Source of the DNA: Phycisphaerales bacterium | Lineage (GTDB): Bacteria > Planctomycetota > Phycisphaerae > Phycisphaerales > UBA1924 | Direction of reading: 5' to 3' | DNA: 64,000 bases | Assembly: GCA_029260495.1 (NCBI GenBank) | Contig: JAJDDD010000009.1 | Coordinates: 434,266 to 498,265, forward strand | Shown: one piece after another, positions 11,028-26,570 of the stretch | Layout of the letters: each line of letters starts with the position of its first letter | Numbering within the stretch: the first letter of the stretch is position 1 | The notes under the pieces: model-generated | Seen by the model: the letters and a program-made list of their open reading frames with translations, nothing else | What the model was told of the DNA's origin: nothing | Databases searched by the model: none | Made by a program: the position numbers and the translations under genes

Positions 11028-12332
11028 GTGAAGATTGCATATCTCATAAACCGATATCCCGCGGTGAGCCACAGCTTTATCCGTCGAGAGATCGCGGCGC
11101 TCGAAGAGATCGGCGTCGCCGTCGAGCGATTCTCCATCCGCGATTGTGCGCACGAAGTTGTTGATGAGCACGATCGCGAAGAAGCCGCCCGAACACAGGT
11201 TCTGCTCGACAATGGCGTGAGGGGCTTATTGGCGCCGACACTCCGGGCTCTGTTCAAGACGCCGCTCGGATTCATGCGATCGCTCCGTGCTGCAGTTCAA
11301 CTGGGATGGAAATCAGATCGCGGCGTGCTTCGGCATCTCATCTACCTCAGTGAAGCCTGCGCACTCAAAGGACGACTTGCTGAATCCGGCTGTGACCACG
11401 TCCATGCGCACTTCGGCACCAACTCGACTGCGGTCGCCATGTTATGCAGAACTCTCGGCGGCCCCAGCTACAGCTTCACAGCGCACGGACCAGAGGAGTT
11501 TGACAAGCCTCTCCAGATCGGACTGGCGGAAAAGATTCACCACGCTTCATTTGTCGCCGGTGTTTCCAGTTTCGGCAGGTCACAGCTCTACCGCTGGTGC
11601 GCATGGAATGAGTGGCCCAAAATCAAGGTCATCCATTGCGGTGTTGACAACTCATATCTCACGCGGGCCCCGACTCCGGTTCCAGAAGCGTGCACGCTCG
11701 TATGCGTCGGCCGGCTCTGTGAACAAAAAGGCCAAGGCATCCTCATCGAAGCCACAGCCCAACTCGCAGCGCAAAATCACAACCTCGAGTTGGTGCTGGT
11801 GGGTGATGGGCCGATGCGGGGGGGGCTTGAAGAGATGATCGCGAGAAGGGGACTTGCTGATCGCGTGCGCATCACCGGGTGGATGACAGGAAAAGAAGTG
11901 CAGCAGGAGCTGCTGCGTGCGCGCGCCCTGGTGTTGCCGAGCTTTGCGGAGGGGCTCCCGGTGGTAATCATGGAGGCGCTGGCGATGGGCCGCCCTGTCA
12001 TTTCAACATACATCGCAGGGATTCCAGAGCTTGTCGAAGACGGTGTGAACGGCTGGCTGATCCCAGCGGGGGATATAGAACAACTGGCAACCGCGATGCG
12101 GACCGTGATTGACGCGACACCTGAAAAGCTGGGGCGGATGGGCCGCGAGGGTGCGCTCCGTGTTGCAGAACGGCACGATGCGCACAAAGAAGCTCAAAAA
12201 TTGGCGATGTGCTTCACTTGTGCGCTCGGCGCCGACAAGGAAACAGACCATGTGTCCGGTGATGTAGGTCATGAACCCGGGGCGCCCGCCCCGGTGTCGC
12301 AAGCTGGAAAAAGCCTTGGCAGCATGAACTGA
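11028..12332 (+). CDS. GT4 family glycosyltransferase, stp-like. Paralog of 1141..2409.
   Basis: GTG start. KIAYLINRYPAVSHSFIRREIAALEEIGV and HVHAHFGTNS...LGGPSYSFTAHGP motifs mirror the first gene. GT-B C-terminus EALAMGRPVIST. Confidence 0.8.
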   Translation: MKIAYLINRYPAVSHSFIRREIAALEEIGVAVERFSIRDCAHEVVDEHDREEAARTQVLLDNGVRGLLAPTLRALFKTPLGFMRSLRAAVQLGWKSDRGVLRHLIYLSEACALKGRLAESGCDHVHAHFGTNSTAVAMLCRTLGGPSYSFTAHGPEEFDKPLQIGLAEKIHHASFVAGVSSFGRSQLYRWCAWNEWPKIKVIHCGVDNSYLTRAPTPVPEACTLVCVGRLCEQKGQGILIEATAQLAAQNHNLELVLVGDGPMRGGLEEMIARRGLADRVRITGWMTGKEVQQELLRARALVLPSFAEGLPVVIMEALAMGRPVISTYIAGIPELVEDGVNGWLIPAGDIEQLATAMRTVIDATPEKLGRMGREGALRVAERHDAHKEAQKLAMCFTCALGADKETDHVSGDVGHEPGAPAPVSQAGKSLGSMN

Positions 12333-12333
12333 T

Positions 12334-13632
12334 TTGTTGCTTCATCTCATGAACATCTTACTCGCGGTTTGTGCGATTGTGCTTGTGATTCCGATGATGG
12401 TGTACATCATCGAATGCGCTGCTGCGATTGTCCCTCGGCGCGCGCGCAAGTTGGATTCGAACGGGGAGCGAGCTGGAGCGACGATCATTATTCCTGCGCA
12501 CAATGAGGCAGGGTCAATCGAGCGGACGGTTGCGTCTGTACAAGAGGAAATGAGCGCAGCGGATCGGCTCATTGTGATTTCGGACAACTCGACAGATGAC
12601 ACCGCGGCGCGCGCAAGAGAGGCGGGAGCGGAGGTCTTTGAGCGCAATGACGCAGAGAGGCGCGGCAAGGGGTATGCGCTTTCTTTCGGGCTTGATCAGA
12701 TCGCGGTCAATCCGCCTGCAGTTGTCGTGTTTGTTGATGCGGATTGTGAACTTGCGTTTGGAAGTCTCAATGCGCTGGTGCGGCAGGCAACGCGCACAGG
12801 GGCGCCTGCGCAGGGCGTGTATCTGCTCGCGGGCGATGAATCGCCGAGCTCGCGCGAGGCCGTCTCTCGGCTGGCGTTTGTCGTGAAGAATCTGGTGCGT
12901 CCTATGGGGCTCGATCATCTGGAGCTTCCATGTTTGCTTACGGGGACGGGGATGGCGTTCCCGTGGGAGATGATCCGGGCGGCGCCTTTGGCGGGTGGGA
13001 ATATTGTTGAGGATATGCAGCTTGGTATAGATCTTGCGATCGCGGGATCGTCGCCGCGATTGTGCGCCGGAGCGCACATACGGGGCGCCTCGGCGACGAA
13101 TGATGACTCCGCCCGTGCGCAGCGCACGCGGTGGGAGCATGGGCATTTGCGGACGCTTACCTCTCAGGGGCCGCGTCTGGTTCGGGCTGCGGCGATGCAG
13201 GGTCGGGGCGATCTTCTGGCGCTGGCGCTGGAACTCACTGTTCCTCCATTGTCATTGCTTGTGGCGGTCGTGTTTGTTGGGACTGTTCTTGCGACATTTG
13301 CAGCGCTTTTGGGAGCATGGTGGTGGCCGGCGAGTTGGCTTGCATCAGGGCTTGCGGGCGTTGTTGTGGTGACGCTGCTGGCCTGGTGGAAGCATGGTCG
13401 TGCGCACGCGCCGGGACGGGCGCTGCTGGCGGCGCCGGCGTACATCCTGTGGAAGCTCCCGTTGTACGCGAAGTTTTTCGTGAAGCCAGAGACAGAATGG
13501 GTGCGCACCGAGCGCGCGGGTGAGCGCACAAATAATAGAGATGAGAGCGCGGATGCAGCTTCAGCTTCGACGTCTGCCGAGGATGAGTCTTCGCTTGATG
13601 AACCGATCACCGAGCGGAGGGCGGCTTCGTGA
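12334..13632 (+). CDS. Membrane-anchored GT2 family glycosyltransferase (N-terminal TM, central GT-A domain, C-terminal TM helices)
   Basis: IIIPAHNEAGSIERT, VISDNSTDDT and VFVDADCE motifs. TTG start at 12334. An in-frame ATG at 12349 is an equally plausible start. Confidence 0.7.
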   Translation: MLLHLMNILLAVCAIVLVIPMMVYIIECAAAIVPRRARKLDSNGERAGATIIIPAHNEAGSIERTVASVQEEMSAADRLIVISDNSTDDTAARAREAGAEVFERNDAERRGKGYALSFGLDQIAVNPPAVVVFVDADCELAFGSLNALVRQATRTGAPAQGVYLLAGDESPSSREAVSRLAFVVKNLVRPMGLDHLELPCLLTGTGMAFPWEMIRAAPLAGGNIVEDMQLGIDLAIAGSSPRLCAGAHIRGASATNDDSARAQRTRWEHGHLRTLTSQGPRLVRAAAMQGRGDLLALALELTVPPLSLLVAVVFVGTVLATFAALLGAWWWPASWLASGLAGVVVVTLLAWWKHGRAHAPGRALLAAPAYILWKLPLYAKFFVKPETEWVRTERAGERTNNRDESADAASASTSAEDESSLDEPITERRAAS

Positions 13633-14468
13633 TGGGGGCGGTCGTGACAACTGAAGAGAGCGCGACGGCGGCGAAGGCATTAGACGTCTTCGGCGCGGTC
13701 GATTTATGTGGCGTTGTGCTGCACAAGGTGACCGAGCGAGGGTGCATTGATTGGATATTGATTGAGCTGAACTCGGGGCGCGGCGGTTGGGTGGTGACGC
13801 CGAATCTTGAGATTGTGCGGCGTTGTGCGAAGAGCGCCGAAGAGCGCGACCTTGTGGCGCGGGCGGATCTTCGAGTGGCGGACGGGATGCCGCTCATTTG
13901 GGCGAGCCGGGTTCGCGGTGAGGCGCTGCCTGCTCGTGTGGCGGGATCGAGCTTGATATTGACGTTGTCTGAGGCAGCGGCTGCGAGGGGGCGATCGATT
14001 TTTCTGCTGGGGGGCGAGCCTGGGTCAGCGGAGGAGGCTGCGCAGGAGTTGGCGAAGCGCAATAAGGAGTTATCGGTCGTGGGAACTTATTGCCCGCCGA
14101 TGGGCTTTGAGCGCGACGCTGAGGAGATGGCTCGGATTCGGGAGGCGCTTGTCGATGCGAACCCGGACATCGTCTTCGTTGGACTTGGCTTCCCGAAGCA
14201 GGAGCGATTGATCGCGGAGGTCCGAGAACTCCTCCCGCAGGCATGGTGGCTGGGCGTGGGCGTGAGTTTTAGCTTTGTGAGCGGCCATGTGCAGCGGGCG
14301 CCGGGCTGGATGCAGCGGTGCGGCGTTGAGTGGTTGCACCGACTGTCGCAGGAGCCGGGGCGGCTGGCGAGGCGATACCTGATCGACGGAATTCCTTTCG
14401 GGATGCGGCTGATGATCGGCTCGGCAGCGTGTCGATTGAGGGGGAAGCGTCAAGGAGCTGTCCGATGA
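13632..14468 (+). CDS. WecB/TagA/CpsF family (GT26) glycosyltransferase
   Basis: VVTPNLEIVRR...ADGMPLIWASR...IFLLGG...VFVGLGFPKQE matches the WecG/TagA pattern. The start overlaps the upstream stop (GTGATG). Confidence 0.75.
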   Translation: MGAVVTTEESATAAKALDVFGAVDLCGVVLHKVTERGCIDWILIELNSGRGGWVVTPNLEIVRRCAKSAEERDLVARADLRVADGMPLIWASRVRGEALPARVAGSSLILTLSEAAAARGRSIFLLGGEPGSAEEAAQELAKRNKELSVVGTYCPPMGFERDAEEMARIREALVDANPDIVFVGLGFPKQERLIAEVRELLPQAWWLGVGVSFSFVSGHVQRAPGWMQRCGVEWLHRLSQEPGRLARRYLIDGIPFGMRLMIGSAACRLRGKRQGAVR

Positions 14469-14962
14469 GCCTATCTGTGCGAACCATTTCGAGTGCAAGC
14501 TGTTCTGTGGAGGATGCGTACAAGCGCGCGTCTGCGGAAGTGGAGCCGGTGTTTGTTCCTGCGAAGATTTATACGGACGATCGAGGGTGGTCGCTGATGA
14601 ATCAGATGCAGGGTGTGATGCGCCCTGAGGGGCAGCTCAACTACTCGGTGCAGTACCCGGGCGTCATCAAGGCGTGGCATCGGCATGCGAAGCAGACTGA
14701 TTTCTGGATGTGCATCCAGGGGCACATGAAGATGGGCGTGTATCGGGATGATGGCGCCGCGTGGATGTTGGTTTCGGGTGAAAAGAATGCAGGCGTGGTG
14801 ATCGTGCCTCCTACATTGTGGCACGGAGCAGCGACTGTGGGACCGACGAGCGCGGGGCTTCTCTACTTTGTGACGCACGCGTACGACCCGCAGGCGCCCG
14901 ATGAGGAGCGAATGCCATTTGACGAGGTTGAGGGGTTCAACTGGGGTGTTGAGTGTCGCTAG
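14465..14962 (+). CDS. Cupin-fold sugar-nucleotide isomerase/epimerase (RmlC / FdtA-WxcM C-terminal-like)
   Basis: ATGA overlap at 14465. A ~166 aa all-beta protein with KAWHRH...DFWMCIQGHMKMGVY. The family assignment is from memory only. Confidence 0.45.
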   Translation: MSLSVRTISSASCSVEDAYKRASAEVEPVFVPAKIYTDDRGWSLMNQMQGVMRPEGQLNYSVQYPGVIKAWHRHAKQTDFWMCIQGHMKMGVYRDDGAAWMLVSGEKNAGVVIVPPTLWHGAATVGPTSAGLLYFVTHAYDPQAPDEERMPFDEVEGFNWGVECR

Positions 14963-14963
14963 C

Positions 14964-15911
14964 GTGACGAAGGACGACGATGAGACGAACAGTCGCGCGA
15001 AGGAGTGCGCGGTCGTTGCGTGTGTGTTGCTCACGGGTGGATTGCGTCCGTCGCCTCTTGTGACTGCGGCGCGACGGTCGGTGTTGGATCTATTTCTCAC
15101 GCCGGAACGAACGGTATTGGGCGTGTGGCTCGATCATCTTCGGAATCTGAATCATGGATCAGCGGTTCCGTGTCGGATTGTGCATGGGGGCGATGGGCCA
15201 ATGCCTTTCGGCGCGGCGATCGGAGAGGGAGCAGCGGTCACGTTCGAGAAGGAGCATGGTCAATATCGGGGGCCAGCGGGCGCGTTGCGGGATGCTTGCG
15301 GGATGTACGGCGAAGAGGACGTGGTGTTGGTTGCTGACGGGGCGCGGTGGGTTTCGGCGTCGTTGGATGGGTTGGTGGCGGCTCATCGTTCGCATGGCGC
15401 GGATGTGACGGTTGCGGCGAATCCGGATGGCTCGCCGACTGGGGCATACCTATTGAGCCGGCGCGTAATTGACCTGACGCCGACCAAGGGATTCATGGAT
15501 TTGAAAGAGCAGTTGCTCGAGAAAGCGTTGCAGTCCGGGATGAGGATTCGAGTTCACACGCTGGACGGCGGCTCGAAGCCACTGCGAACGAGGAAGCAGT
15601 TTTTGGGGGTGTGCGCGGAAATTGGAAGGCGGGAAGAGCAACGTCCGAAAACTGCTGGAGAGTCTGCGAGGCTGGAGGGGGTGAGTTGGCGTGCTGCTGA
15701 CGGTGAGTTGGGGGCAGGCTGCGTGCTGGTGGACTCTGTGGTGATGCCGGGGGCGGTCGTGGGAGAAGGGGCGGTGGTGGCGAGAACGATCGTTTGTCCT
15801 GGGGCCCGGGTCCAGCCCGGGGCGCGTGTGGTCGATGCTGTTGTGAGCGCGGAAGGTGTAAGATCAGGAGACGAGCGGCCGGCTGTTGGCCGCTGGAAGG
15901 TTCGGTCATGA
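14964..15911 (+). CDS. Nucleotidyltransferase-fold protein with a C-terminal left-handed beta-helix (hexapeptide repeats)
   Basis: A GTG follows 1 nt after the upstream TAG. CAVVACVLLTGGLRPSPL resembles the NTP-transferase G-rich loop. C-terminal VLVDSVVMPGAVVGEGAVVARTIVCPGARVQPGARVVDAVV hexapeptides. Confidence 0.5.
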   Translation: MTKDDDETNSRAKECAVVACVLLTGGLRPSPLVTAARRSVLDLFLTPERTVLGVWLDHLRNLNHGSAVPCRIVHGGDGPMPFGAAIGEGAAVTFEKEHGQYRGPAGALRDACGMYGEEDVVLVADGARWVSASLDGLVAAHRSHGADVTVAANPDGSPTGAYLLSRRVIDLTPTKGFMDLKEQLLEKALQSGMRIRVHTLDGGSKPLRTRKQFLGVCAEIGRREEQRPKTAGESARLEGVSWRAADGELGAGCVLVDSVVMPGAVVGEGAVVARTIVCPGARVQPGARVVDAVVSAEGVRSGDERPAVGRWKVRS

Positions 15912-16774
15912 TCCAGCGTCGGGCGTGGAGATTTTCGGACGGTGTGCTGCTCGCAGCGTTGGTGGGGCTGGCGATCGTTGCGACCCGTGAGATATGGCGC
16001 GATATCTTTCGTATTGGTTGGCACAACGAAGAGCAGTCGCACATTCTGCTGGCGCCGTTGATCGCGCTGTGGTTGATGTGGGTGCGTCGGGAGCGGCTGC
16101 GATTCTGCAGGCCGTGCTGGACGTTGCTCGGGCCGTTGGTTGTTGGCGTGGGTTGGGCGCTGGCGTGGTATGGGTTTCATGGATCGACGACAGTCTTTTG
16201 GCATTTCGGGGCTCTGCTGATTGTCGCGGGGGCGGCGATTACGGTGGTGGGGGTTGAGTTTGTTCGGAACTTTGCGCCGGCGATGATTGCGTTGGTGTTC
16301 TTGATGCCGGTTCCTGGGGATATCCGCGGGGACATCGCGGTGCCATTGCAGAAGGTGACAGCGACGGTGACGCAGTTCGGGATGGAGCTTTTTGGCGTGC
16401 CGGTGACACGGGCGGGGAATCAGTTGTCTTTGAACGGGCAGGATGTCGCGGTGGCCGAGGCGTGTAATGGGATGCGCATGGTGGCGGCGCTGGTGCTGGT
16501 GAGTTTTGCGTTTGTGTTTTCGACTCCGATGCGGCAGGGGGTTCGCATATTTATTCTTGCGATTAGTCCGCTGGTTGCAATTGTGTGCAATGTGATTCGC
16601 CTGGTGCCGACGGTGTTGCTTTATGGATATTCGAGCAAGGACGCGGCGGACACATTCCATGATGTGAGCGGGTGGGCGATGCTGTTCGTTGCGCTGGGGA
16701 TTTTGTGGGGTATTTTCGGCGTTCTGCGATGGATTGAGATTCCGATTACGCCGTATGCAGTGGCGGAGGAATAG
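15908..16774 (+). CDS. Exosortase (Xrt family transpeptidase for PEP-CTERM proteins)
   Basis: ATGA overlap at 15908. 8 TM helices. VAVAEACNGMRMV carries the conserved exosortase Cys. A conserved Arg/Asn-containing segment lies downstream (NVIRLVPTV). Confidence 0.8.
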   Translation: MIQRRAWRFSDGVLLAALVGLAIVATREIWRDIFRIGWHNEEQSHILLAPLIALWLMWVRRERLRFCRPCWTLLGPLVVGVGWALAWYGFHGSTTVFWHFGALLIVAGAAITVVGVEFVRNFAPAMIALVFLMPVPGDIRGDIAVPLQKVTATVTQFGMELFGVPVTRAGNQLSLNGQDVAVAEACNGMRMVAALVLVSFAFVFSTPMRQGVRIFILAISPLVAIVCNVIRLVPTVLLYGYSSKDAADTFHDVSGWAMLFVALGILWGIFGVLRWIEIPITPYAVAEE

Positions 16775-17470
16775 ATGGGCACAAGCAGGTGGTACAACGT
16801 GTTTGGTCGGGTAGCGCCGGGGGCGAGCGCTGTGATTCTCGGAGCGGTTTTAGTTGTCGGGGGGATTGATGCGGAGTCTTTGCCGGGAGCGGGGAAGTAT
16901 CACAAGGCGGTGAAGGTGGCGATCGAGGGTGTGCCTTACCGGATTGGGCAGTGGGTGGGGACGGACGTGGACACGCCGATTGAGGCGGTCAAGCTGCTGC
17001 GGCCGAATGAGATTTTGCATCGCCGGTTTGTGAATACGACGACCAACGAGACGGTGGCGCTGCTTGTTGTGCATTGCACGGACACCAATGACATGTTGGG
17101 GCACTACCCGCCACAATGCTACCCGGCGCACGGCTGGAGACGGGAAGGCACACAGCAAACGACGCTGGAGTTTGAGGATCAGCTTTATCCAGCGACGGAG
17201 TACGAGTTCAATCGGATGGTGCAGGGGCGCGAACAGCGTATGAGCGTGTTCAGTTTTTTTGTGCTGCCTGATGGATCGATCGTGGCGGATATGAAAGGAT
17301 TGAAGAGCGCATCGGGGCGGAAGTCGGCTTCGCAGCTTGGCGCTGCTCAGGTGCAGATTGTCGGTGGAGAAGACTTGCCGGCGGAGAAGCGCAGGGAAAT
17401 CGTGCATGAGTTTGTGCGTGCGATAGAGCCGACGATCCGAGTAGTCGCGGAGGGGATCAAGAATGGATAA
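16775..17470 (+). CDS. EpsI-like exosortase-associated protein
   Basis: ATG directly after the exosortase stop. Signal-anchored ~230 aa protein in the position EpsI occupies next to XrtA. The family call rests on position and size. Confidence 0.5.
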   Translation: MGTSRWYNVFGRVAPGASAVILGAVLVVGGIDAESLPGAGKYHKAVKVAIEGVPYRIGQWVGTDVDTPIEAVKLLRPNEILHRRFVNTTTNETVALLVVHCTDTNDMLGHYPPQCYPAHGWRREGTQQTTLEFEDQLYPATEYEFNRMVQGREQRMSVFSFFVLPDGSIVADMKGLKSASGRKSASQLGAAQVQIVGGEDLPAEKRREIVHEFVRAIEPTIRVVAEGIKNG

Positions 17471-19667
17471 GTTTTTAATGAATGGCCAGGCTTCTGCGGA
17501 AGGCGGAGGCGAGGCGCCTGAAAACCTGCTGCATGTGGTGCATCGGCGGCTGCGCGGACGGTATCCGTGGGCGATTGCGCTTGGGCTGGTTCTGTCGCTG
17601 CCGTTCGCGGCGCTGGGATGGAAAGCGAAGCAGCCGGAGTTTCGGAGCACGGGTTTGGTTAATGTTGAAGATCAGGCTGAGTCGGTGCTTTTTGCAGATG
17701 TTCATACTCCGATCCGTCGGTTTGACACATTCGTGAACAAACAAGCGACGTTCCTTCGCGGGCGACGCGTAATTGACAAAGCGGTGGAGAATGAGGAGCT
17801 CCTGGATGTTGGTTGGCCACAGGGTCAGGAGGGCATTCGCCTGCTTCAAAAGAAGCTGTCGATCGGGTATGCGCGCGGGGAGTCATTGATCAGTGTCAAT
17901 GTTTCGCATCCGGACCCGACGATGGCGCGGATAGCGGTGAATGCGGTTCTGGACGCTTACAATGAGCTGTTCGGCGAGACAGGCGCGCTGCGAGCGACTG
18001 AAAAGGAACGCACGCTCCAGGAGCGCGAGCGGAAGCTCCTCAATGAAATTTCGGCGCTGCAAAGGCAGAAAATCGCCCTTTCCGAAGAGTTCGGCCAAGA
18101 CCAGCTAAGCACCATGCATGCGCGCAAGGTGGAGGAGCTCAGTGAAATTGATCGGGAAATGTCGCGCGTTGATGTCGCGATCAGCGAAGCGGAGCTACGC
18201 GATGAAGATGAGCAGAGTCGTGAGTCGCAGATCGCGAGCGTTGTTGAGACATTGTCCGAGCGTGATCCGGTGTTGAACACGTTGCAGCGTGACCTTGAAA
18301 CGCTGAGGGCTCAGTACGCGGGGCTGACAAATCTGGGCGAGAGGCATCGAACGAAGCGGCGTCTTCGCACTGAAATCGAGGTTAAACAGGCGCAACTTCA
18401 GAATCGATTTGACGAGTTGATTGAACAGGCTGGGGAGATGGGACAGTCTGAGCTTGGGACATTGCAGTTGCAGACGCCGCAACGGCTGCAGGCGTATCGC
18501 GAGCGGCTGATCGAGCGTCAGGAGGCCGTGCGCAATGACGCAAGCGAGCTGAACAAGAAACGACTTGAGCTGGACTTGATCAGCGAACAGATCGCGGAGA
18601 AAACGAAGATTCGGCTGTTGACAACCCAGCGGCTCGATCAACTTCGTGTTGAGCGCGAAAGCAGAACTGAGGGTCATGTGACCATCGCGCAGCACGGCGA
18701 CATTCCGGTGGACATCGAGGACAAGCGCAAGATGTTTGCAGCAATTGGCGCTATGTTTGGTGGCGGACTTGGCGTGGGGATCGTCTTTCTCCTTGGTCTG
18801 TTTGATAGCAGGCTGCGGTATATCGACGATCTTGAGCGAGAGGCGCTCGCCGTGCCATTGCTTGGCACGCTTCCTGATCTGGGATCGAAGAATCTTGAGC
18901 ATGATGAAATCGCGGCGCTAGCTGTGCATAATCTGCGCAATATGTTGCAGCTTCAGGCGTCTCCCGGGGACGGCAATTGCAGGGTGTATACGATCACGAG
19001 CGGTTCGCCGGGTGACGGCAAGACAAGTCTGGCGCTGGCGATGGGGATGTCGTTTGCATTGTCAGGACAAAAGACGCTGCTCCTGGACGCCGACCTGGTT
19101 GGGCATGGACTCACGCACGAGCTTGGGCATGATGGGGCGCAGGGATTGTGCCAGGCGGTGCGGGAAGAGGATGCGAAGACGCACATTCAGAGTACGACTA
19201 TTGAGAATTTGTGGACACTTCCGTGTGGCAGGCAAAATGTGATCGACGCGAAAAACCTCTCGCAGGAGATGATGCAGCATGTGATCGGGCAGTTGCGCCA
19301 GGAGTACGACACGATTATCGTGGACACGGGGCCGCTTCTTGGCAGTCTGGAGGCGAACTTGATGGCATCATTGTCCGACGGAGTCGTGCTGACGATCTCG
19401 CGTGGGCAGAACCATAAGTTTGTCAACGCCTGTCTAGAGAGGTTGCGGCAGATGAACGCGAAATGCGCGGGGCTGGTCTTCAACAAGGCGGAGGCGAGGG
19501 ATTTCAATCGGAGCGTGAGCGCTGCTTCAGTGTGTTCGCAGTCGATTCGGAATCAGTCGCTTCTGGATAAGTCTGCCAATGCGCCGGAGCGTAACGCGCG
19601 CGGCGCGTTGGTGCGGGCAGTGATCGGCGGACCTTCAGACGCCAATGAGGAAAAGCCGGCGGCGTGA
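17463..19667 (+). CDS. GumC/Wzc-like polysaccharide co-polymerase (chain-length determinant) with a C-terminal P-loop ATPase (BY-kinase-like) domain
   Basis: N-terminal TM, long coiled-coil periplasmic region and a second TM. Walker A TSGSPGDGKTS, A' LLLDADL and B IIVDTGPLL. No C-terminal tyrosine cluster. Confidence 0.75.
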   Translation: MDKFLMNGQASAEGGGEAPENLLHVVHRRLRGRYPWAIALGLVLSLPFAALGWKAKQPEFRSTGLVNVEDQAESVLFADVHTPIRRFDTFVNKQATFLRGRRVIDKAVENEELLDVGWPQGQEGIRLLQKKLSIGYARGESLISVNVSHPDPTMARIAVNAVLDAYNELFGETGALRATEKERTLQERERKLLNEISALQRQKIALSEEFGQDQLSTMHARKVEELSEIDREMSRVDVAISEAELRDEDEQSRESQIASVVETLSERDPVLNTLQRDLETLRAQYAGLTNLGERHRTKRRLRTEIEVKQAQLQNRFDELIEQAGEMGQSELGTLQLQTPQRLQAYRERLIERQEAVRNDASELNKKRLELDLISEQIAEKTKIRLLTTQRLDQLRVERESRTEGHVTIAQHGDIPVDIEDKRKMFAAIGAMFGGGLGVGIVFLLGLFDSRLRYIDDLEREALAVPLLGTLPDLGSKNLEHDEIAALAVHNLRNMLQLQASPGDGNCRVYTITSGSPGDGKTSLALAMGMSFALSGQKTLLLDADLVGHGLTHELGHDGAQGLCQAVREEDAKTHIQSTTIENLWTLPCGRQNVIDAKNLSQEMMQHVIGQLRQEYDTIIVDTGPLLGSLEANLMASLSDGVVLTISRGQNHKFVNACLERLRQMNAKCAGLVFNKAEARDFNRSVSAASVCSQSIRNQSLLDKSANAPERNARGALVRAVIGGPSDANEEKPAA

Positions 19668-21109
19668 ACTCGCTGCACGAGAGCGTGGTGATGCATCAGA
19701 GGCCGGCTGAAATTTCAGCGGATCGGTGGTCACGCGCCCATACTCGAGTGTGGGGGCTTTCCATTGAGGAAACCCATGATCGTTATTGGGCTTCCAAAGG
19801 CGTGCAGGTTGTGCGGCCTGGCGGGGCGGCGGTGATTGGCCGGGGCCCGATGCTGTACCTGCTTCTTCGGCGTGGCGAGCTGGTGCTGTTCAAATTCGCA
19901 CCTGTGGTCAAGCGGCTGAACTGGATTCGATCGCGCGCGATGCGTTTACGGATCGTTGATCTGGACGCGGACTCCTATGTTGAGCGGGTGATTGCAGATG
20001 ATGATGGCGGATTTATTGCGATTCGCAGGGACTACAGCGTCGAGACGCACGGCTCGACGCGCGCCGCGGTCACAGGCGAAGCAAAGCTTGCGCGGCAGTG
20101 GCGCGATGCGGACAACGCGCGGGAGGGATGGCGAGCGATTGTTGCGCGAGCGGGGGCGGATCGGACGAGTGTGCATCGTTGCGTGGGGCGGATATTTGAC
20201 GCTGAGGATGATGAATCGCTTGAAGAGTGTCTGACAAGCCTGATGCAGCGGTGGAAAAATCCAACGCTGGGTTTGGATGGCGTTTATGAGTTCATGCCTG
20301 GCGTTCTTTTGCATGAGTCTGCGGAAGTTGAATCTGGAGCAGTGCTGCTGCCTCCGGTGTGGATTGGAGCCGGTTCGCGCATTGGTGGACAGGCGGTGGT
20401 CGTTGGGCCAACTCTTACGCCCGATGAGCCTGATGCCCAGCCAACACAGCGGGAAGTATCGTGGGAGCGGATTCAGTATCCCGGTTGGCGTCCGACACCG
20501 AGGTTGCGCGGGCGATGGTTCCGCATGAGCAAGCGCGTGTTTGATATTGGTTTCAGCCTTGCGGTGCTCGCGGCAACGGCGCCGATCTATCCAATCGCAA
20601 TCGCGTTGATTTTTCTGGAGGATGGGTGGCCGCCCTTTTTTGCGCACAGGCGGCAGACACGGCGGGGGCGAACGTTTCCGTGCTACAAGTTTCGCACGAT
20701 GTCTCGCGGGGCGGATTCAATGAAGGAGGAACTGGAAGCGAGCAATGTCTGCGACGGGCCGCAGTTCTATATAGAGGTAGACCCGCGTGTGTCGAAGGTT
20801 GGCAAGTGGCTTCGGCGGTTTCAGATTGATGAACTACCACAGTTTTGGAATGTGTTGCGCGGGCATATGAGCGTCGTTGGGCCGCGCCCGAGCCCGGACA
20901 GTGAAAATCAGTATTGTCCTGCGTGGCGTGAGGCGAGGCTGAGCATTCGGCCTGGTGTGACGGGCCTGTGGCAGGTGCGGCGCACGCGGGAGCCTGCGAC
21001 GGATTTTCAGGAGTGGATTCGGTATGACCTTGAGTACGTTCAGCATGAGAGCTGGCGTCTGGACCTTTGGATCATTCTCAAGACGATTGGGAAGGTCATC
21101 AAGAGCTAG
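19664..21109 (+). CDS. Priming sugar-1-phosphate transferase (bacterial sugar transferase family, WbaP/EpsE-like) with an atypical ~285 aa soluble N-terminal domain
   Basis: GTGA overlap start. The C-terminal ~195 aa (RVFDIGFSLAVL...KFRTM...DELPQFWNVLRGHMSVVGPRP) is the conserved catalytic domain. The N-terminal domain has no TM helices and an LbH-like stretch. Confidence 0.8.
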   Translation: MNSLHESVVMHQRPAEISADRWSRAHTRVWGLSIEETHDRYWASKGVQVVRPGGAAVIGRGPMLYLLLRRGELVLFKFAPVVKRLNWIRSRAMRLRIVDLDADSYVERVIADDDGGFIAIRRDYSVETHGSTRAAVTGEAKLARQWRDADNAREGWRAIVARAGADRTSVHRCVGRIFDAEDDESLEECLTSLMQRWKNPTLGLDGVYEFMPGVLLHESAEVESGAVLLPPVWIGAGSRIGGQAVVVGPTLTPDEPDAQPTQREVSWERIQYPGWRPTPRLRGRWFRMSKRVFDIGFSLAVLAATAPIYPIAIALIFLEDGWPPFFAHRRQTRRGRTFPCYKFRTMSRGADSMKEELEASNVCDGPQFYIEVDPRVSKVGKWLRRFQIDELPQFWNVLRGHMSVVGPRPSPDSENQYCPAWREARLSIRPGVTGLWQVRRTREPATDFQEWIRYDLEYVQHESWRLDLWIILKTIGKVIKS

Positions 21110-21118
21110 GAACGAGCT

Positions 21119-24100
21119 ATGACGAATCGGGCGAAAAAAAGACTTTTGCTGTTGGGTGTGTCGGTTGTCATCGCGGGCGGCGGCGTGGTGGGATTGCAGC
21201 AACTGCGCAATATACAGTCTGCGCGCACACTGAAGTCGAATTTTGAAGAAGGGATGGCGGCGCACGAAGCAGGGCGTCATAAAGATGCCTCTACAAAGCT
21301 CTGGTATTATGTGACTGTCGCGCAGTCGGACGACGTGGATGGTGAAGCTCTGCTCGCGTTTGTCGAGAGTCGCCGGCAGACACCGGACGAGAACGGAAAG
21401 CATTTGCTTGAATCAATCCTGGTGGCGAAACGCGCAAGGGATTTAATGCCGAGCGACGTGCGGCCGCTTGAGCATTTGCTTGCGCTATATGGCATAACAG
21501 GGCAGTTTTCGGAACGGCTGGACGCTGCGAACCGATTGCTCGCGATTGATGACAAAAATTACGAAGGGATGAAGGCGAAGATCTCGTCATTTTGGCGATT
21601 GGGCGAGCGTGATCAAGCTCTCCAGGTTGCGCAGTCGATGGCGGAGGTGTACGAGGATGACATTTTTGCGCATTCCTTGGTCTTGCAGCTTTATGAGGAT
21701 CTCGACAAGCCAAAGCGCGAAATGCTGGATTATGCGCAAGCGGTCTCGAAGAAATACCCGGACGATGCGCGATTCACACTTCTTGTCGCGCAGGTGCACG
21801 CGGCTGCGAATGAAGATCAGAAGGCGAGGGAGATCGCGCAACAGGCTCTTGGGATGGATATTTCCGACGCGGTGACATTGCGGGAGTTGCTGCTCGTGCT
21901 CGACCGGCTCGGTATGACCGCTGAGGCGGCGGCGGTGATTGACCGAGAGACGGCGAAGGAAGGTGTGAGTGATGAGTTCTATGCGATCGCTGCGGAGCGG
22001 GCGTGGAAGGAGTCGCGCATCTCGAAGTCGCTCGAGTACATCAGGCGGGCGTCAGTTGATCCGGAGTCGGCCAAGGATAACGTCCTGGGATGGCGGGCGT
22101 TCCTTGAACAAGGAGCGACGGATGTAAGCGAGCGTGAGAGTATTGTTGAAATTCTGCGCGGGCGGGGAACTCCGGAGGCAGCGACGTGGATTTCATTGCT
22201 TCGGGCGCAGGATGCGATGGCGCAAAGCGATTGGGCGTTAGCGCAGGAGGAGCTGCGCACAGCGCAGACGACAGATGATGGAAACTCGCTCGCCATCTAC
22301 ATGATGGGTGAGACTGAGCGCCGGCTGGGCGAGTGGCGGGCCGCGATTGAGCGCTGGGGTGAGCTGCGCAAGACCGAGCCAACGTGGGTTCGCTTGCATG
22401 TTGATTTGGCCTCTGCGCTGCTCGACCATGAGTTCCCTGCTGAGGCGTACATCATCGCGGCGCGTGGGGCGCAGGTGGCGCCGAACCAGGTTGTGATGGC
22501 GCCTGTGCTCGCGCGGGCTTCTATGGAAGTGATCGAGCGCCAGATATTGACGGGAACGGAAGCTGAAACTCCGCTGGCGTTTCTTGAAGAGCTACGAGAG
22601 AAGCTTCCTCCATCGGGATTTGTACAGTCGCTTTTGGCGCGGGCGTATGCAGCTTTAGACAGGCCGGCCGAAGCGAAGGAGGCCATTGAAGTTATTTTCA
22701 AGAACGATCTTGAGGCGCCATCTGACTCGCTGGGGCCGCTCCTTGCGATGAACAAACGGTATGAATGGGGGTTTGCCGAGCAGATTCGTGCGGTGAGTCC
22801 GGAATCGCCCGCGAGTGTATTTACGCTGGCGATCGAGGCGCACCAGGCAGGTGACACGAAGGCAGGAATGCGCATGTTGCGCAATGCGGTCGAGTCGCAC
22901 GAAGGCGGCGAGCGGCTGGCGTATGAGCTTCGTCTCGCGGCGTATCAGGATCTTGTAGATGCGCCAGAGGCATTGGAGAATTTGAGCCGGATCGGCGCGG
23001 ACAACCCACAGTCAGCTGAAGCGCAGCGGCTGGTGCTCAACTCACGGGCGGCCTGGCGGGATGAAAAGATCGTCAGCTCCGCGATCGCGAGCTTGCGGAA
23101 TCTGGCTGGGAACAAGTCATCGCTCTGGCGCGTCGCGGAAGCGCGGCGACTGTTGACGTTTAGCGATCCGAACAATCCGAACGATCGGCAGGACAAGGCT
23201 GCCCGCGTCGTCAACGACGTATTGAAATCGGTCATTACGAATGATCCGCGGGCAGGGCGGGCGCATGAGCTTGCTGCTGAAGCCTGGCTTATTCTTGATG
23301 AACGCAATAACGCGATCCATCACCTGGAGCTTGCGCTCGCGGCCCAGCGCGATGCGATACGTCTGTATCCAAAGCTGATTTCACTCTTTCAGCAAGCAGG
23401 CGATGCGGAAGGCGCAAAGCGGTATCTTCAGAAGTTTTCACAGCAAACAAACATCACTCCTGAAATGCAACGACGGCGAGCTGCGCTGCTCGTTTCGCAG
23501 AACATGATTGATCCAGCGATGGATGATTTTCGCAGCCTGGCGCAGGCGGGCGACGTGAGAGCACAGGTTTCGCTGGCTGCATTGCACTCTCGCCTGGGTG
23601 AGGTCGGTCAGGCAAGAGAGATGTACGAGCAGGCGCTGAGGCATGATGACGAGTTGGCGCCTTTTGTCGCGGAAGCTGCTGCGGAGTATTTTGCTTCGCA
23701 AGGCGAGATGGATCGAGCGCGCAGCATTTTGACCGAACATCTCAAGGATGCGGGACGCGAGGGGATGCTGGCCGCGCTGCTCATGAGGCACGGTCTTGCC
23801 GGTGAAGCTGAAGATATTTACACCCGCTTGGCGCAGTCTGAAAACTCGGGGGCAGCATGGAGCGATCTTGCCCGATTCTACCTTTCACAGCGGCGCGTCG
23901 ATGAGGCAGAGCAGGCAATTAGCCAGGGGCTTGCCGTAGCGCCTGATGATGAAAATCTTATACACACAGCGAGCATGGTGTCCATGGCGGGCGGTGAGGA
24001 GATCGCAGCAGAGGGGCTCTCTGATGCGCTGACCGCGTTTGGACTCGATCCGGACAGTCGCTCGGGCATCGCGCTTCAGGAGGCGCTGGATCATATCCAG

Positions 24101-25297
24101 GCGAACCCGACGGACCTTGACGGCTACATTGACCGGCTGCGTCGACTGGTGGAGCGAGATGCGACGTTTTATCCAGCCTGGCAGATGCTTGTGCAAGCCC
24201 ATATGCGCAAGGGTGATGTTCCCTCGGCGCTGGAGGTTGCGCAGTCCGCGACTCAATCACTTCCAGCTGACCCACGTCCGGCGAAAATGGTGACCGAGCT
24301 TCTCATGCGCCAAGGGCGCACGGATCAGGCGATTGCAGCGGCGAAACTGTGGCGCGAACGCGCGCTTGCGAATCCGTACCCCACCGATCTGCTAATTGCG
24401 CAGTTGAATGACCGAATGGGTCGTTATGAGGAAGGACTTGGATGGCTGGCGCCCTACCGTGATCGGATTATTCGTGAAGGAGACACGGCGCCGACGCCTC
24501 TTGAGTTGCTCGCATCGTTGCACGCAGGAGCCGATCAAGAGGAGATTGCTCTTGAGTTGCTTTGGGATCGGGCCCAGGAAAGTCAAGCGTGGCGGGGAGG
24601 GTACCTCCGCGCCGGCTATCGCATGTTTGATCGCCCGGCCGAGGCACGGGAGTGGTTTGAGCGCGTGACGCCGCTCATGCTCAGCACAACTTCAGAACGA
24701 ATCGCGATGGGGCGGGCTTGGTATGACCTTGGCGTGCAGCATGTGACCAGAGAGGACTTCCAGCGCACGGTGGACATCGTTGAGCCGGCGCTGGATGATC
24801 CGGACGCGCGTGGGGCGGCTGCGGCGTTTTGTGCTGCGTGCTATGAGCAACTGAATCAGCCGGAAGAAGCGGAGCGGCTGTATCGGGTTGCAATCAGTGA
24901 AAATCCGGGCCAGGCGGATCTCAAAAACAATCTTGCGTTTCTGATTCTGACGCAGGGCGGCTCGCTGGAAGAGGCGTTGGCGCTCGCGACGAGCGCGACA
25001 GAATCCTCGTTGAACATCGCGACGTTCTTCGATACGAAAGGGCAGGTGCTGTTCAAACTCGGGCGGGCGGAGGAAGCTGAGACAGCGTTCCGCCAGGGGC
25101 TGGAGATTGATCCGGCGGATCCCTTGCTCCTGATCGGCCTGGCGGAAGCGTTGCATGCGCAGAAGGAGTTCGGCGAAGCGCAGCGCGTGCTTTCGCTGCT
25201 TGAAGCCATGAACAACTTTCGGTCCGGGCTGAGCGGTGATCTGACTGCTCGCTACAACAGTGTGAAGAGTCAACTTCGCGCCAGTGGGGGGGATTGA
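21119..25297 (+). CDS. Very large TPR-repeat protein (1392 aa) with an N-terminal signal anchor. PrsT-like PEP-CTERM-system TPR protein.
   Basis: AGGAA RBS. KKRLLLLGVSVVIAGGGVVGL anchor. Repetitive A/L/E/R-rich TPR-like helices throughout. Sits adjacent to the exosortase core. Confidence 0.7.
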   Translation: MTNRAKKRLLLLGVSVVIAGGGVVGLQQLRNIQSARTLKSNFEEGMAAHEAGRHKDASTKLWYYVTVAQSDDVDGEALLAFVESRRQTPDENGKHLLESILVAKRARDLMPSDVRPLEHLLALYGITGQFSERLDAANRLLAIDDKNYEGMKAKISSFWRLGERDQALQVAQSMAEVYEDDIFAHSLVLQLYEDLDKPKREMLDYAQAVSKKYPDDARFTLLVAQVHAAANEDQKAREIAQQALGMDISDAVTLRELLLVLDRLGMTAEAAAVIDRETAKEGVSDEFYAIAAERAWKESRISKSLEYIRRASVDPESAKDNVLGWRAFLEQGATDVSERESIVEILRGRGTPEAATWISLLRAQDAMAQSDWALAQEELRTAQTTDDGNSLAIYMMGETERRLGEWRAAIERWGELRKTEPTWVRLHVDLASALLDHEFPAEAYIIAARGAQVAPNQVVMAPVLARASMEVIERQILTGTEAETPLAFLEELREKLPPSGFVQSLLARAYAALDRPAEAKEAIEVIFKNDLEAPSDSLGPLLAMNKRYEWGFAEQIRAVSPESPASVFTLAIEAHQAGDTKAGMRMLRNAVESHEGGERLAYELRLAAYQDLVDAPEALENLSRIGADNPQSAEAQRLVLNSRAAWRDEKIVSSAIASLRNLAGNKSSLWRVAEARRLLTFSDPNNPNDRQDKAARVVNDVLKSVITNDPRAGRAHELAAEAWLILDERNNAIHHLELALAAQRDAIRLYPKLISLFQQAGDAEGAKRYLQKFSQQTNITPEMQRRRAALLVSQNMIDPAMDDFRSLAQAGDVRAQVSLAALHSRLGEVGQAREMYEQALRHDDELAPFVAEAAAEYFASQGEMDRARSILTEHLKDAGREGMLAALLMRHGLAGEAEDIYTRLAQSENSGAAWSDLARFYLSQRRVDEAEQAISQGLAVAPDDENLIHTASMVSMAGGEEIAAEGLSDALTAFGLDPDSRSGIALQEALDHIQANPTDLDGYIDRLRRLVERDATFYPAWQMLVQAHMRKGDVPSALEVAQSATQSLPADPRPAKMVTELLMRQGRTDQAIAAAKLWRERALANPYPTDLLIAQLNDRMGRYEEGLGWLAPYRDRIIREGDTAPTPLELLASLHAGADQEEIALELLWDRAQESQAWRGGYLRAGYRMFDRPAEAREWFERVTPLMLSTTSERIAMGRAWYDLGVQHVTREDFQRTVDIVEPALDDPDARGAAAAFCAACYEQLNQPEEAERLYRVAISENPGQADLKNNLAFLILTQGGSLEEALALATSATESSLNIATFFDTKGQVLFKLGRAEEAETAFRQGLEIDPADPLLLIGLAEALHAQKEFGEAQRVLSLLEAMNNFRSGLSGDLTARYNSVKSQLRASGGD

Positions 25298-25349
25298 AAA
25301 TGTTATTCGTGGGGCGCATTGATTGTTGCTGTGTTTTCGGAAGGAGTCG

Positions 25350-26160: not shown

Positions 26161-26197
26161 CGGAGCTCCTCGCGATGGCGGGCGGCTCCGTTTTTTT
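26161..26197 (+). terminator. Rho-independent terminator ending the EPS operon
   Basis: CGGAGC...GCTCCG stem followed by seven T residues, 38 nt after the RmlA-like stop. Confidence 0.6.
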
Positions 26198-26570
26198 ATG
26201 CGCACAAATCCATTGGCGGGTTCTCGGACATACGAACCATGTTGGCAAGTGAAAACAATCGACTGATAACAAAGATGTTGCACAACTGCGCGCACTGGCG
26301 CTGGACGTTCACTGGGGCGCGTATATCTCTTGGGCAGCGCAGGTAAGAGAGTTGTCAACTTTATCAGAGGCCCCTGTGGGAATAGCGAATCTGGCGCGAA
26401 TATGCCGGCGCTGAATCTGCAAGAGGCTGGCGAAACGGTTGACCACTCTCAGCCCTGGTGTACTTAGAAGTAAGTGACTGACTTTCGGCGAGCGTCACCG
26501 ACTCATGCTCGCTTCATGTATTTCTGATCCCGTTTACCGGCGCTGTGTCGCCCGAGTCGGACGGGGAGCA

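What the first reader, a model, noticed from the sequence alone, without database searches (positions are those of the whole stretch)
15908..17470. Compact exosortase (288 aa) with a separate EpsI-like partner
The exosortase ORF carries the diagnostic AEACNGMR Cys motif and 8 TM helices but no fused C-terminal EpsI domain. A signal-anchored 231-aa protein follows with zero intergenic distance (TAG ATG). Which Xrt subclass this is cannot be told by eye. The subclass determines which PEP-CTERM variant is recognised. The PEP-CTERM protein here has an LPQP rather than a canonical PEP core, which may indicate a subclass-specific signal.
Basis: partly seen in the sequence, partly recalled or inferred. 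Interest (0 to 1): 0.6.

Follow-up and report, generated by a model that had tools for sequence, protein, structure and literature searches.

The report
Phycisphaerae exosortase–EpsI pair, PLP-tailed cargo
This is a real but fairly ordinary protein-sorting enzyme (exosortase) with its separate helper protein EpsI inside a polysaccharide gene cluster of a Phycisphaerae bacterium; it fits no named exosortase subclass and appears to recognise a Pro-Leu-Pro tail instead of the classic Pro-Glu-Pro.

Summary
ORF 15908-16774 (288 aa) is a bona fide exosortase: Pfam PF09721 175 bits, TIGR02602 129.6 bits against a cut-off of 105.55, and invariant C-x-G, N-x-x-R and H-x-x-x-G motifs. ORF 16775-17470 (231 aa) follows at TAG|ATG and is an EpsI/DUF3485 protein.

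No named subclass model is reached. XrtA is best at 131 bits against 208, and XrtD scores 116 against 400. The enzyme belongs to a large clade (relatives in 319 species genomes; the best 80 nearly all labelled Phycisphaerae or Planctomycetota) with a conserved gene order: LbH gene, exosortase, EpsI, tyrosine kinase, priming sugar transferase, giant TPR protein.

Separate EpsI is not unusual; it is the founding Methylobacillus arrangement. Sister proteins at 40-52% identity carry the same EpsI domain fused.

The useful new point is the signal. Just after the TPR gene, 24 of 60 related loci and the window encode secreted proteins with unrelated mature domains. All end in [VI][VI]-P-L-P-x-[AG]-A, a TM helix and RRRR. 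The central residue is Leu in 27 of 35 tails and never Glu. The core is therefore PLP, not "LPQP". The tail misses all curated signal models, and VPLPA-CTERM is the closest.

Verdict: an unnamed exosortase/signal variant of a known system, of modest interest.

The parts
14946..15911 (+). Conserved upstream gene. It is nucleotidyltransferase-like with a C-terminal left-handed beta-helix (hexapeptide) region. Its stop overlaps the exosortase start (ATGA).
   Evidence: Weak LbH/GMPPB_C hits. It is called as 321 aa in L001. A homologue lies directly upstream of the exosortase in nearly all 80 loci. The junction was read.
15908..16774 (+). Exosortase of 288 aa and 8 TM helices. Cys186 is at nt 16463-16465, Asn228/Arg231 at nt 16589-16600, and His251 at nt 16658-16660.
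   Evidence: PF09721 175 bits; TIGR02602 129.6 against 105.55; TIGR04178 57.9 against 23. All named subclasses fall below their cut-offs. Invariant residues are and the AF2 model.
16775..17470 (+). Separate EpsI-family partner of 231 aa: an N-terminal membrane anchor plus a periplasmic Mog1/PsbP-like domain. It has an invariant motif VHC..D..GH.PP.CY..GW.
17463..19667 (+). Fused chain-length-determinant and BY-type tyrosine autokinase (734 aa, two TM segments). It overlaps the EpsI stop by 8 nt.
   Evidence: TIGR01007, TIGR03018 and TIGR03017 hits, all sub-threshold. TM segments are, the junction, and the conserved position.
19664..21109 (+). Priming polyprenyl-phosphate glycosyl-phosphotransferase (481 aa).
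   Evidence: PF02397 195 bits; TIGR03025 230.6 bits. Its position is conserved.
21119..25297 (+). Giant TPR protein (1392 aa, N-terminal anchor), PrsT-like.
   Evidence: TIGR02917 148.7 bits against a cut-off of 312 (not reached), plus many TPR Pfam hits. Its position is conserved.
25323..26123 (+). Glucose-1-phosphate thymidylyltransferase-like gene, the last gene of the operon. The true start is probably a few codons downstream.
   Evidence: TIGR01208/TIGR01207 at about 233 bits. The same gene follows the TPR gene in 12 of the 'no tail found' loci plus L027 (13 loci in all), and in L083-L085.
26177..26199 (+). Terminator-like hairpin plus T-run that separates the operon from the cargo gene.
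   Evidence: sequence read.
26586..27350 (+). Predicted exosortase cargo of 254 aa. It has a Sec signal peptide (…AGAAQA|ATAS) and a mature domain with no Pfam match. Its C-terminal tail ILPLPQPAMLGLAGLAGLGVIRRRKA is at nt 27270-27347.
   Evidence: P0241 is the 254-aa gene call. L083 shows the same order relative to the exosortase cluster.
11028..14962 (+). Upstream glycosyltransferase block of the same cluster: GT4, GT2, WecG/TagA-type and a small cupin-like ORF.

Best explanation
ORF 15908-16774 encodes an active inner-membrane exosortase, a Cys/Arg/His peptidase or transpeptidase with its active site at the periplasmic face. ORF 16775-17470 encodes its dedicated, membrane-anchored periplasmic EpsI subunit. 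The two are translationally coupled with each other and with a Wzy/Wzc-type exopolysaccharide pathway (tyrosine kinase/co-polymerase, priming transferase, giant TPR protein).

The pair belongs to a Phycisphaerae-wide clade that is not any named Xrt subclass. Its probable substrates are Sec-exported proteins whose C-terminus reads [VI][VI]-P-L-P-x-[AG]-A, then a TM helix, then RRRR (a 'PLP-CTERM' tail).

Proposed mechanism: after export the cargo stays tethered by the tail helix. The exosortase recognises the PLP motif at the membrane-periplasm interface, Cys186 cleaves there, and the protein is released or transferred to an acceptor, probably linked to the polysaccharide layer made by the same cluster. 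EpsI, a Mog1/PsbP-like binding module, most likely helps position the substrate or acceptor.

Shown: family membership, conserved catalytic residues, conserved operon, fusion/fission with EpsI, and the recurrent PLP tail at the cluster end. Inferred: cleavage of that tail by this enzyme, the nature of the acceptor, and the role of EpsI.
For: Family membership:
- PF09721 175 bits, TIGR02602 129.6 against 105.55, TIGR04178 57.9 against 23.
- C186-N-G188, N228-x-x-R231 and H251-x-x-x-G255 are invariant in 20 clade members. These are the three motifs that define the family in PMC1569441.
- In the AF2 model, Cys186, Arg231 and His251 lie near the same (periplasmic) ends of the last three helices.

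Partner:
- PF11984 is above its cut-off.
- The partner gene lies directly downstream of the exosortase in 81 of the 82 related loci. The exception is L002, which ends inside that gene.
- All 48 fused relatives (520-590 aa) carry a C-terminal domain homologous to the window's partner, with E down to 1e-46.
- The fold is a confident Mog1/PsbP-like binding fold.

Subclass:
- Every named Xrt model is below its cut-off for the window protein, for 20 clade members and for 10 fused relatives.

Signal:
- 25 of 215 ORFs just after the TPR gene carry a PxP-TM-RR tail, against 7 of about 5,100 elsewhere, and all 7 are artefacts.
- The mature domains are unrelated to each other (16-36% identity). They include PepA-, EDSAP-1-, XDP1-, DUF4114- and TED-like domains known from PEP-CTERM cargo, yet the tail is constant.
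- The central residue is L in 27, T in 5, A in 2, M in 1 and E in 0 of 35 tails.
- L083 repeats the window's exact gene order through to the cargo gene.
Against: - There is no experimental evidence for cleavage.
- Whole genomes could not be searched, so the number of PLP-tailed proteins per genome is unknown. It is also unknown whether canonical PEP-CTERM proteins or a second exosortase coexist.
- One cargo homologue (P0250, L087) is encoded away from the cluster.
- Ten assessable loci show no tail after the TPR gene.
- The tail is close to the known VPLPA-CTERM motif (up to 23.3 bits against 25.35), so 'distinct signal' is a matter of degree.
- TIGR02914 (EpsI) is narrowly missed (37.7 against 42.8).
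- Triad distances could not be measured because model coordinates are not exposed.
Confidence: 0.72

Rival explanations
1. It is simply a divergent orthologue of exosortase A (XrtA). It would process ordinary PEP-CTERM proteins encoded elsewhere in the genome, and the PLP-tailed neighbour would be only a sloppy PEP-CTERM variant.
For: XrtA is the top-scoring subclass model at 131 bits. The cluster has XrtA-system-like parts: a PrsT-like TPR protein, a TIGR03018-like kinase, a TIGR03013-like transferase and stp2-like GT4s. Pfam PEP-CTERM gives weak hits to 6 of 19 tails.
Against: XrtA scores 131 against a cut-off of 208 for the window protein, and no better than E=9e-40 for any of 20 clade members. 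All XrtA-system accessory models are also far below their cut-offs. TIGR02595 does not list 18 of 19 cluster tails at E<=1, and Glu is absent from the core in 35 of 35 tails. No canonical PEP tail was seen in 1.5 Mb of clade loci.
Confidence: 0.13
2. It is a split member of the XrtD/VPLPA-CTERM system: an XrtD whose EpsI domain has become a separate gene, recognising VPLPA-type tails.
For: TIGR03370 VPLPA-CTERM is the best short-signal model and aligns full-length (1-24 of 25) at 11-23 bits. Fused relatives score best against the XrtD model, and the EpsI partner matches the XrtD C-terminal half. Several tails literally read V-[VI]-P-L-P-A.
Against: The XrtD model scores only 113-159 bits against a cut-off of 400, even for full-length fused relatives. 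No tail reaches the TIGR03370 cut-off of 25.35. For the exosortase domain alone, XrtA scores higher than XrtD. The higher XrtD score of fused proteins is largely explained by the model covering the extra EpsI domain.
Confidence: 0.12
3. The ORF is not a sorting peptidase at all. It would be another polytopic membrane family (CAAX protease or transporter) or an inactive relic.
For: None found. The crude hydropathy scan detected only some of the helices.
Against: All significant HMM hits are exosortase/archaeosortase models. The catalytic motifs are invariant across the 20 aligned homologues (48-71% identity across the clade). The gene is syntenic in 80 species genomes. No solved structure resembles the model, with TM <= 0.22 and none at E <= 0.001, and a sequence profile finds nothing in the PDB.
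Confidence: 0.01

Closest known systems
EpsH/EpsI of the Methylobacillus sp. 12S methanolan locus and the XrtA/PEP-CTERM system (Haft 2006, PMC1569441)
   Same: An 8-TM exosortase with C-x-G, N-x-x-R and H-x-x-x-G motifs, with EpsI encoded by the next gene. It is embedded in an EPS locus with a tyrosine kinase, a priming transferase and a TPR protein. The cargo has a signal peptide plus a tripartite C-terminal tail and is encoded as a separate unit behind a long intergenic region.
   Different: It scores 131 bits against the 208-bit XrtA cut-off. The accessory proteins are below the XrtA-system cut-offs. The tail core is P-L-P (never P-E-P) and is not listed by TIGR02595 for 18 of 19 cluster tails. 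No sigma-54-type site lies upstream of the cargo gene. The taxon is Phycisphaerae.
XrtD / VPLPA-CTERM (TIGR04152 / TIGR03370)
   Same: The signal motif is nearly the same at the core (V-P-L-P-A against [VI]-P-L-P-x-[AG]-A). TIGR03370 is the best-matching curated signal model. Fused relatives of the window enzyme have the XrtD-like exosortase+EpsI architecture.
   Different: The enzyme scores 116 bits (fused relatives 113-159) against a cut-off of 400. Tails reach at most 23.3 bits against 25.35. The window enzyme is split from EpsI.
XrtB and XrtV systems with their own separate EpsI proteins (NF045609 EpsI type B, NF045608 EpsI type V)
   Same: A compact exosortase of about 270-290 aa plus a separately encoded EpsI protein of about 220 aa.
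   Different: Scores are far below the cut-offs: XrtB 63 against 275, XrtV 83 against 313, EpsI-B 29 against 220 and EpsI-V 25 against 228.
Dedicated sorting systems with the target gene near the enzyme gene (for example JDVT-CTERM/MrtJ, Haft 2023 bioRxiv 10.1101/2023.06.07.544157)
   Same: A cargo gene recurs at a fixed position next to the sorting-enzyme cluster.
   Different: Here the cargo's mature domain changes from genome to genome, and at least one homologue lies elsewhere in a genome. The system is therefore probably one-to-several, not strictly one-to-one.

Membership tests
Exosortase/archaeosortase superfamily (PF09721, TIGR02602, TIGR04178) | Score above the curated cut-offs of the family HMMs | tested here: met
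   PF09721 175.1 against 25.7; TIGR02602 129.6 against 105.55; TIGR04178 57.9 against 23
Exosortase/archaeosortase superfamily (PF09721, TIGR02602, TIGR04178) | Invariant Cys-x-Gly, Asn-x-x-Arg and His-x-x-x-Gly motifs (PMC1569441) | tested here: met
   C186-N-G188, N228-V-I-R231 and H251-D-V-S-G255 are invariant in 20 clade members (definition)
Exosortase/archaeosortase superfamily (PF09721, TIGR02602, TIGR04178) | About 8 TM helices with the triad near the outer face of three consecutive helices | tested here: met
   The AF2 model has eight long helices. C186 starts helix 182-205, R231 is late in helix 210-241 and H251 is early in helix 244-275. Positive loops at 60-72 and 206-213 fit a cytoplasmic location. 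Distances were not measurable.
Exosortase/archaeosortase superfamily (PF09721, TIGR02602, TIGR04178) | Peptidase/transpeptidase activity on a C-terminal sorting signal | not testable with these tools
   Needs genetics or proteomics
Exosortase A (XrtA, TIGR03109) | Score at or above the 208-bit curated cut-off | tested here: not met
   131.2 bits. The best of 20 clade members has E=9.2e-40, still well below the cut-off.
Exosortase A (XrtA, TIGR03109) | Cognate canonical PEP-CTERM (TIGR02595) cargo | tested here: not met
   TIGR02595 is not listed for any of the 19 cluster tails at E<=1. One family homologue reaches 12.5 against 16. Glu occupies the core in 0 of 35 tails. The whole-genome cargo set was not examined.
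XrtD / VPLPA-CTERM system (TIGR04152, TIGR03370) | Enzyme score at or above 400 bits, with a fused EpsI domain | tested here: not met
   115.6 bits with no fused domain. Fused relatives score 113-159 bits.
XrtD / VPLPA-CTERM system (TIGR04152, TIGR03370) | Cargo tails at or above 25.35 bits on TIGR03370 | tested here: not met
   The window tail scores 16.8, and homologues 10.9-23.3
Other named exosortases (XrtB, C, H, J, N, Q, T, V, W, X, Y; CrtA-C) | Score at or above each curated cut-off | tested here: not met
   All are far below their cut-offs
EpsI family (PF11984 / TIGR02914) | HMM score above the cut-off | tested here: inconclusive
   PF11984 50.1 against 26.1 (met); TIGR02914 37.7 against 42.8 (narrowly missed). 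NCBI names close relatives 'exosortase-associated EpsI family protein'.
EpsI family (PF11984 / TIGR02914) | Encoded adjacent to, or fused with, an exosortase | tested here: met
   A zero-nt gap in the window. The gene is adjacent in 81 of 82 related loci, the exception being L002, which ends inside the gene. It is fused in 48 of 48 long relatives.
Tripartite C-terminal sorting signal (criteria in Haft 2023, 10.1101/2023.06.07.544157) | Motif abutting a TM helix followed by an Arg-rich cluster at the extreme C-terminus; N-terminal signal peptide; carriers otherwise unrelated | tested here: met
   The 35-tail logo, signal peptides, and mature domains at 16-36% identity from several families

The most novel reading that the evidence does not exclude
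The Phycisphaerae clade is a distinct, as yet unnamed exosortase subclass with its own cognate 'PLP-CTERM' sorting signal. The cluster carries a swappable cargo slot at its 3' end, after the TPR gene, in which different surface-protein domains have been exchanged while the tail is kept. This would make it a semi-dedicated exosortase system that couples one variable surface protein to one exopolysaccharide.
Probability: 0.55. Interest if true: 0.45.

Novelty: new variant of a known kind. Interest (0 to 1): 0.33.

Why it matters
Exosortase systems are inferred almost entirely from comparative genomics, and current annotation depends on subclass-specific HMM pairs (enzyme plus signal). Here both halves fall through the curated net across a whole class of Planctomycetota. 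The enzyme is named only generically. The cargo proteins are annotated as hypothetical proteins with no Pfam domain, because no signal model recognises the P-L-P tail.

Defining this pair would let hundreds of Phycisphaerae genomes have their exosortase-dependent surface proteome annotated. It would also add a natural E-to-L variant of the PEP motif that bears on what the enzyme actually reads. The practical and conceptual gain is incremental: it extends a known principle (subclass-specific signal flavours) and does not reveal a new mechanism.

Tried and rejected
- The sigma-54 promoter idea for the cargo gene, as in proteobacterial PEP-CTERM genes, was rejected. There is no TGGCAC-N5-TTGC-like site in 26124-26585, and the window-wide count is below chance.
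- The conserved upstream LbH gene is not a paralogue of the N-terminal domain of the priming transferase. They share only repeat-level similarity (E=0.049).
- Rfam found nothing but a tRNA-Gln in the window, so there is no known riboswitch or leader in the long intergenic region.
- A solved-structure homologue of the exosortase does not exist by sequence or by fold.
- The Haft 2012 subclass paper (PMC3256604) is not held. Statements about XrtD/VPLPA pairing therefore rest on the NCBIfam model names and on my own knowledge.
- Literature searches for exosortase or PEP-CTERM together with Phycisphaerae or Planctomycetota returned only incidental citations.
Full report
**1. Observation**

- The ORF list and direct reads of the junctions confirm the geometry. 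ATG 15908 overlaps the stop of the upstream ORF (ATGA). The exosortase ORF ends at TAG 16772-16774, and the next ORF starts at ATG 16775. That ORF's stop (17468-17470) lies inside the start of the following kinase gene (ATG 17463).
- A longer TTG-initiated reading from 15794 exists. However, all 120 listed homologues are about 288 aa and begin at the equivalent Met, and the identical 288-aa product is on record (P0001; L001).
- AEACNGMR is residues 183-190.
- The window is about 58-63% G+C. It carries a prepilin-type N-methyl protein, and its close relatives are all Phycisphaerae MAGs or isolates. The source is therefore a Phycisphaerae (Planctomycetota) genome.

**2. What the two proteins are**

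The exosortase:
- The 288-aa protein matches Pfam Exosortase_EpsH at 175 bits. It passes the generic NCBIfam exosortase model TIGR02602 (129.6 against 105.55) and the signature model TIGR04178.
- Haft et al. 2006 (PMC1569441) define the family by three motifs that carry a putative Cys/Arg/His triad: Cys-x-Gly, Asn-x-x-Arg and His-x-x-x-Gly.
- In an alignment of 20 clade members at 56-71% identity to the window protein, C186-N-G188, N228-x-x-R231 and H251-x-x-x-G255 are all invariant.
- An AlphaFold2 model (pLDDT 83) shows eight long helices and a beta-hairpin (167-181). The three residues sit near the same ends of the last three helices. With the positively charged loops 60-72 and 206-213 assigned to the cytoplasm, the triad faces the periplasm, as in the published model.
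- No solved structure resembles the model, either by sequence or by fold. The CAAX-protease alternative has no support.

The EpsI partner:
- The 231-aa protein passes Pfam DUF3485/EpsI (50.1 against 26.1) and narrowly misses TIGR02914 (37.7 against 42.8).
- NCBI already names several close relatives 'exosortase-associated EpsI family protein'.
- Its model is confident (pLDDT 93.5): an N-terminal TM helix followed by an alpha/beta domain.
- An invariant motif VHC..D..GH.PP.CY..GW (C101, H110, C115) sits in a loop region.

**3. Subclass**

- No named subclass model is reached: XrtA 131 against 208, XrtD 116 against 400, XrtW 104 against 425, XrtV 83 against 313, XrtB 63 against 275, and the others lower.
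- None of 20 clade members does better than E=9e-40 on XrtA.
- An exhaustive search of 1.84 billion representatives gave 170 proteins at E<=1e-30.
- The nearest relatives outside the clade (40-52% identity) include 48 proteins of 520-590 aa. Their C-terminal halves are homologous to the window's EpsI partner in 48 of 48 cases, with E down to 1e-46.
- Ten of these relatives were scanned and also miss every named subclass. The nine that carry a fused EpsI domain score 113-159 against 400 on XrtD.
- In a neighbour-joining tree the Phycisphaerae split forms cluster together, beside a mostly fused group.
- Two conclusions follow:
  - The enzyme belongs to an unnamed radiation roughly equidistant from XrtA, XrtD and XrtW.
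  - 'Compact with separate EpsI' is one state of a fusion/fission polymorphism. It is also the arrangement of the founding Methylobacillus EpsH/EpsI pair, so it is not a distinguishing novelty. The fusions do give Rosetta-stone evidence that the two window proteins act together.

**4. Context**

- A scan of one genome per species found 319 genomes with a relative. The best 80 are nearly all labelled Phycisphaerae or Planctomycetota, with a few other labels such as L015.
- Nearly all that are long enough share the same gene order: LbH/nucleotidyltransferase-like gene, exosortase, EpsI, chain-length-determinant/tyrosine-kinase fusion, priming glycosyl-phosphotransferase, TPR protein of about 1,400 aa.
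- The kinase, transferase and TPR protein resemble XrtA-system components (TIGR03018, TIGR03013, TIGR02917/PrsT), but all score far below their cut-offs.
- Upstream lie GT4, GT2 and WecG-type glycosyltransferases and a flippase. The pair is thus embedded in a Wzx/Wzy-type EPS cluster and is translationally coupled to it.

**5. The signal**

- Only one ORF in the 64-kb window has a motif-TM-basic tail that looks real: 26505-27350. Its public gene call is 26586-27350, 254 aa, with a signal peptide ending AQA|A.
- The same screen on 1.5 Mb of clade loci found such tails almost exclusively in the first gene or two after the TPR gene. There, 25 of 215 ORFs match. Elsewhere 7 of about 5,100 match, and all 7 are low-complexity off-frame artefacts.
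- Of 60 loci with the TPR gene:
  - 24 show the tail.
  - 14 end too soon to tell.
  - 12 have the window's rmlA-like gene inserted, so the cargo would lie beyond the fetched flank. This arrangement was verified in full on L083, which repeats the window's order through to the cargo gene and the APH and aminotransferase genes beyond it.
  - 10 show none.
- The carriers are mutually unrelated (16-36% identity). They include PepA-like, EDSAP-1-like, XDP1-like, DUF4114 and thioester-domain proteins, all families known as PEP-CTERM cargo. Only the signal peptide and the tail are shared.
- The 35-tail logo is [LAF]-[TVI]-[VIL]-[VI]-P-[L27 T5 A2 M1]-P-x-[AGP]-A-x-L-[GA]-x-x-G…RRR[RK]. Glu never occupies the centre.
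The equivalent of P-E-P is P-L-P.
- Curated models do not capture the tail:
  - TIGR02595 is absent at E<=1 for the 19 cluster tails. It gives one 12.5-bit hit (cut-off 16) in the cargo family.
  - Pfam PEP-CTERM gives six weak hits.
  - The closest model, VPLPA-CTERM (TIGR03370), aligns end to end but reaches only 11-23 bits against 25.35.
- The window's own cargo family is small (12 clusters), has no Pfam domain and is annotated as hypothetical.
- One homologue (P0250) is encoded away from any exosortase cluster, so the system is probably one-to-several, not strictly one-to-one.

**6. Mechanism (inferred)**

- By analogy with the PEP-CTERM/exosortase model (PMC1569441; Haft 2023 preprint), the cargo is exported by Sec and held by its C-terminal helix and Arg cluster.
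- The PLP motif at the membrane-periplasm boundary is then recognised by the exosortase and cleaved via Cys186. The protein is released or transferred to an acceptor associated with the polysaccharide made by the same cluster.
- EpsI, anchored beside the enzyme and fused to it in sister lineages, most plausibly positions the substrate or acceptor.
- A terminator-like hairpin (26177-26199) and a 460-nt intergenic region make the cargo gene a separate transcription unit. This matches the pattern noted for PEP-CTERM genes in 2006, but there is no sigma-54-like site here.
- None of the catalytic steps has been tested.

**7. Comparison and novelty**

- Functionally this looks like an XrtA-type EPS-linked sorting system, with a signal that resembles the VPLPA flavour.
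- By membership it is an exosortase and an EpsI protein. It is not a member of XrtA, XrtD or any other named subclass as curated.
- Subclass-specific signal flavours are an established principle. An additional unnamed enzyme/signal pair in Phycisphaerae is a new variant of a known kind.
- I found no paper in the held library that describes it.

**8. Verdict**

The separate EpsI is ordinary.
- The most useful outcome is the definition of a clade-wide P-L-P tail and a conserved cargo slot at the end of the cluster.
- Interest is modest (0.33).

Noticed in passing
window 1-26000: GC skew changes sign within a run of + strand EPS genes. It is -0.10 to -0.18 over 1-10 kb and +0.14 to +0.29 over 12-26 kb, flipping near 10-12 kb. 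This could mean the cluster is assembled from two segments with different histories, or that a replication-related skew boundary lies here.
   Followed up: no
P0253 (representative library protein, 496 aa): A close relative (50% identity) has the exosortase domain fused at its N-terminus to a PssE/Cps14G-like glycosyltransferase domain. This directly links the sorting enzyme to polysaccharide synthesis.
   Followed up: partly
window 26124-26585: A 460-nt intergenic region lies before the cargo gene, preceded by a terminator-like hairpin at 26177-26199. It has no Rfam family and no sigma-54-like site. Whether this region is conserved in L083/L085 was not examined.
   Followed up: partly
window 16775-17470 (EpsI residues 99-121): The motif VHC..D..GH.PP.CY..GW, with two Cys and a His, is invariant in 35 homologues. 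It could be a periplasmic disulfide or a functional site.
   Followed up: partly
L087:5700-11868: A homologue of the window's cargo protein (P0250, tail VIPLPAAAWLGLAGLGGAAIARRRRMA) lies next to Tricorn-like protease genes and far from any exosortase cluster. PLP-tailed proteins are therefore not confined to the cluster.
   Followed up: partly
L015 (WYBR01000042.1): The record is labelled Vicinamibacteraceae (Acidobacteriota), but it carries the complete Phycisphaerae-type cluster at 58% identity. This is probably a mislabelled or contaminated bin.
   Followed up: no
window 9590-11020: A long ORF (up to 476 aa, start uncertain) inside the glycosyltransferase block has no Pfam or NCBIfam match.
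   Followed up: no
window 14946-15911 and 19664-20530: The gene coupled upstream of the exosortase and the N-terminal 280 aa of the priming transferase both contain hexapeptide-repeat segments. Their similarity is only marginal (E=0.049). The upstream gene is nevertheless conserved next to the exosortase in nearly all loci, and its role is unknown.
   Followed up: partly
window 51938-53125 (-), 58646-60849 (-): A GGDEF diguanylate cyclase and a histidine kinase with a receiver-HTH regulator lie 25-45 kb downstream. They are possible biofilm regulators, but no link to the cluster was shown.
   Followed up: no
L063, L082, L049 (Phycisphaera sp. and relatives), about 9 kb downstream of the exosortase: In these loci the cargo slot holds DUF4114-type proteins whose tail core is A-P-T-P-Q-A-A rather than P-L-P. 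This is a lineage-specific sub-variant of the signal.
   Followed up: partly
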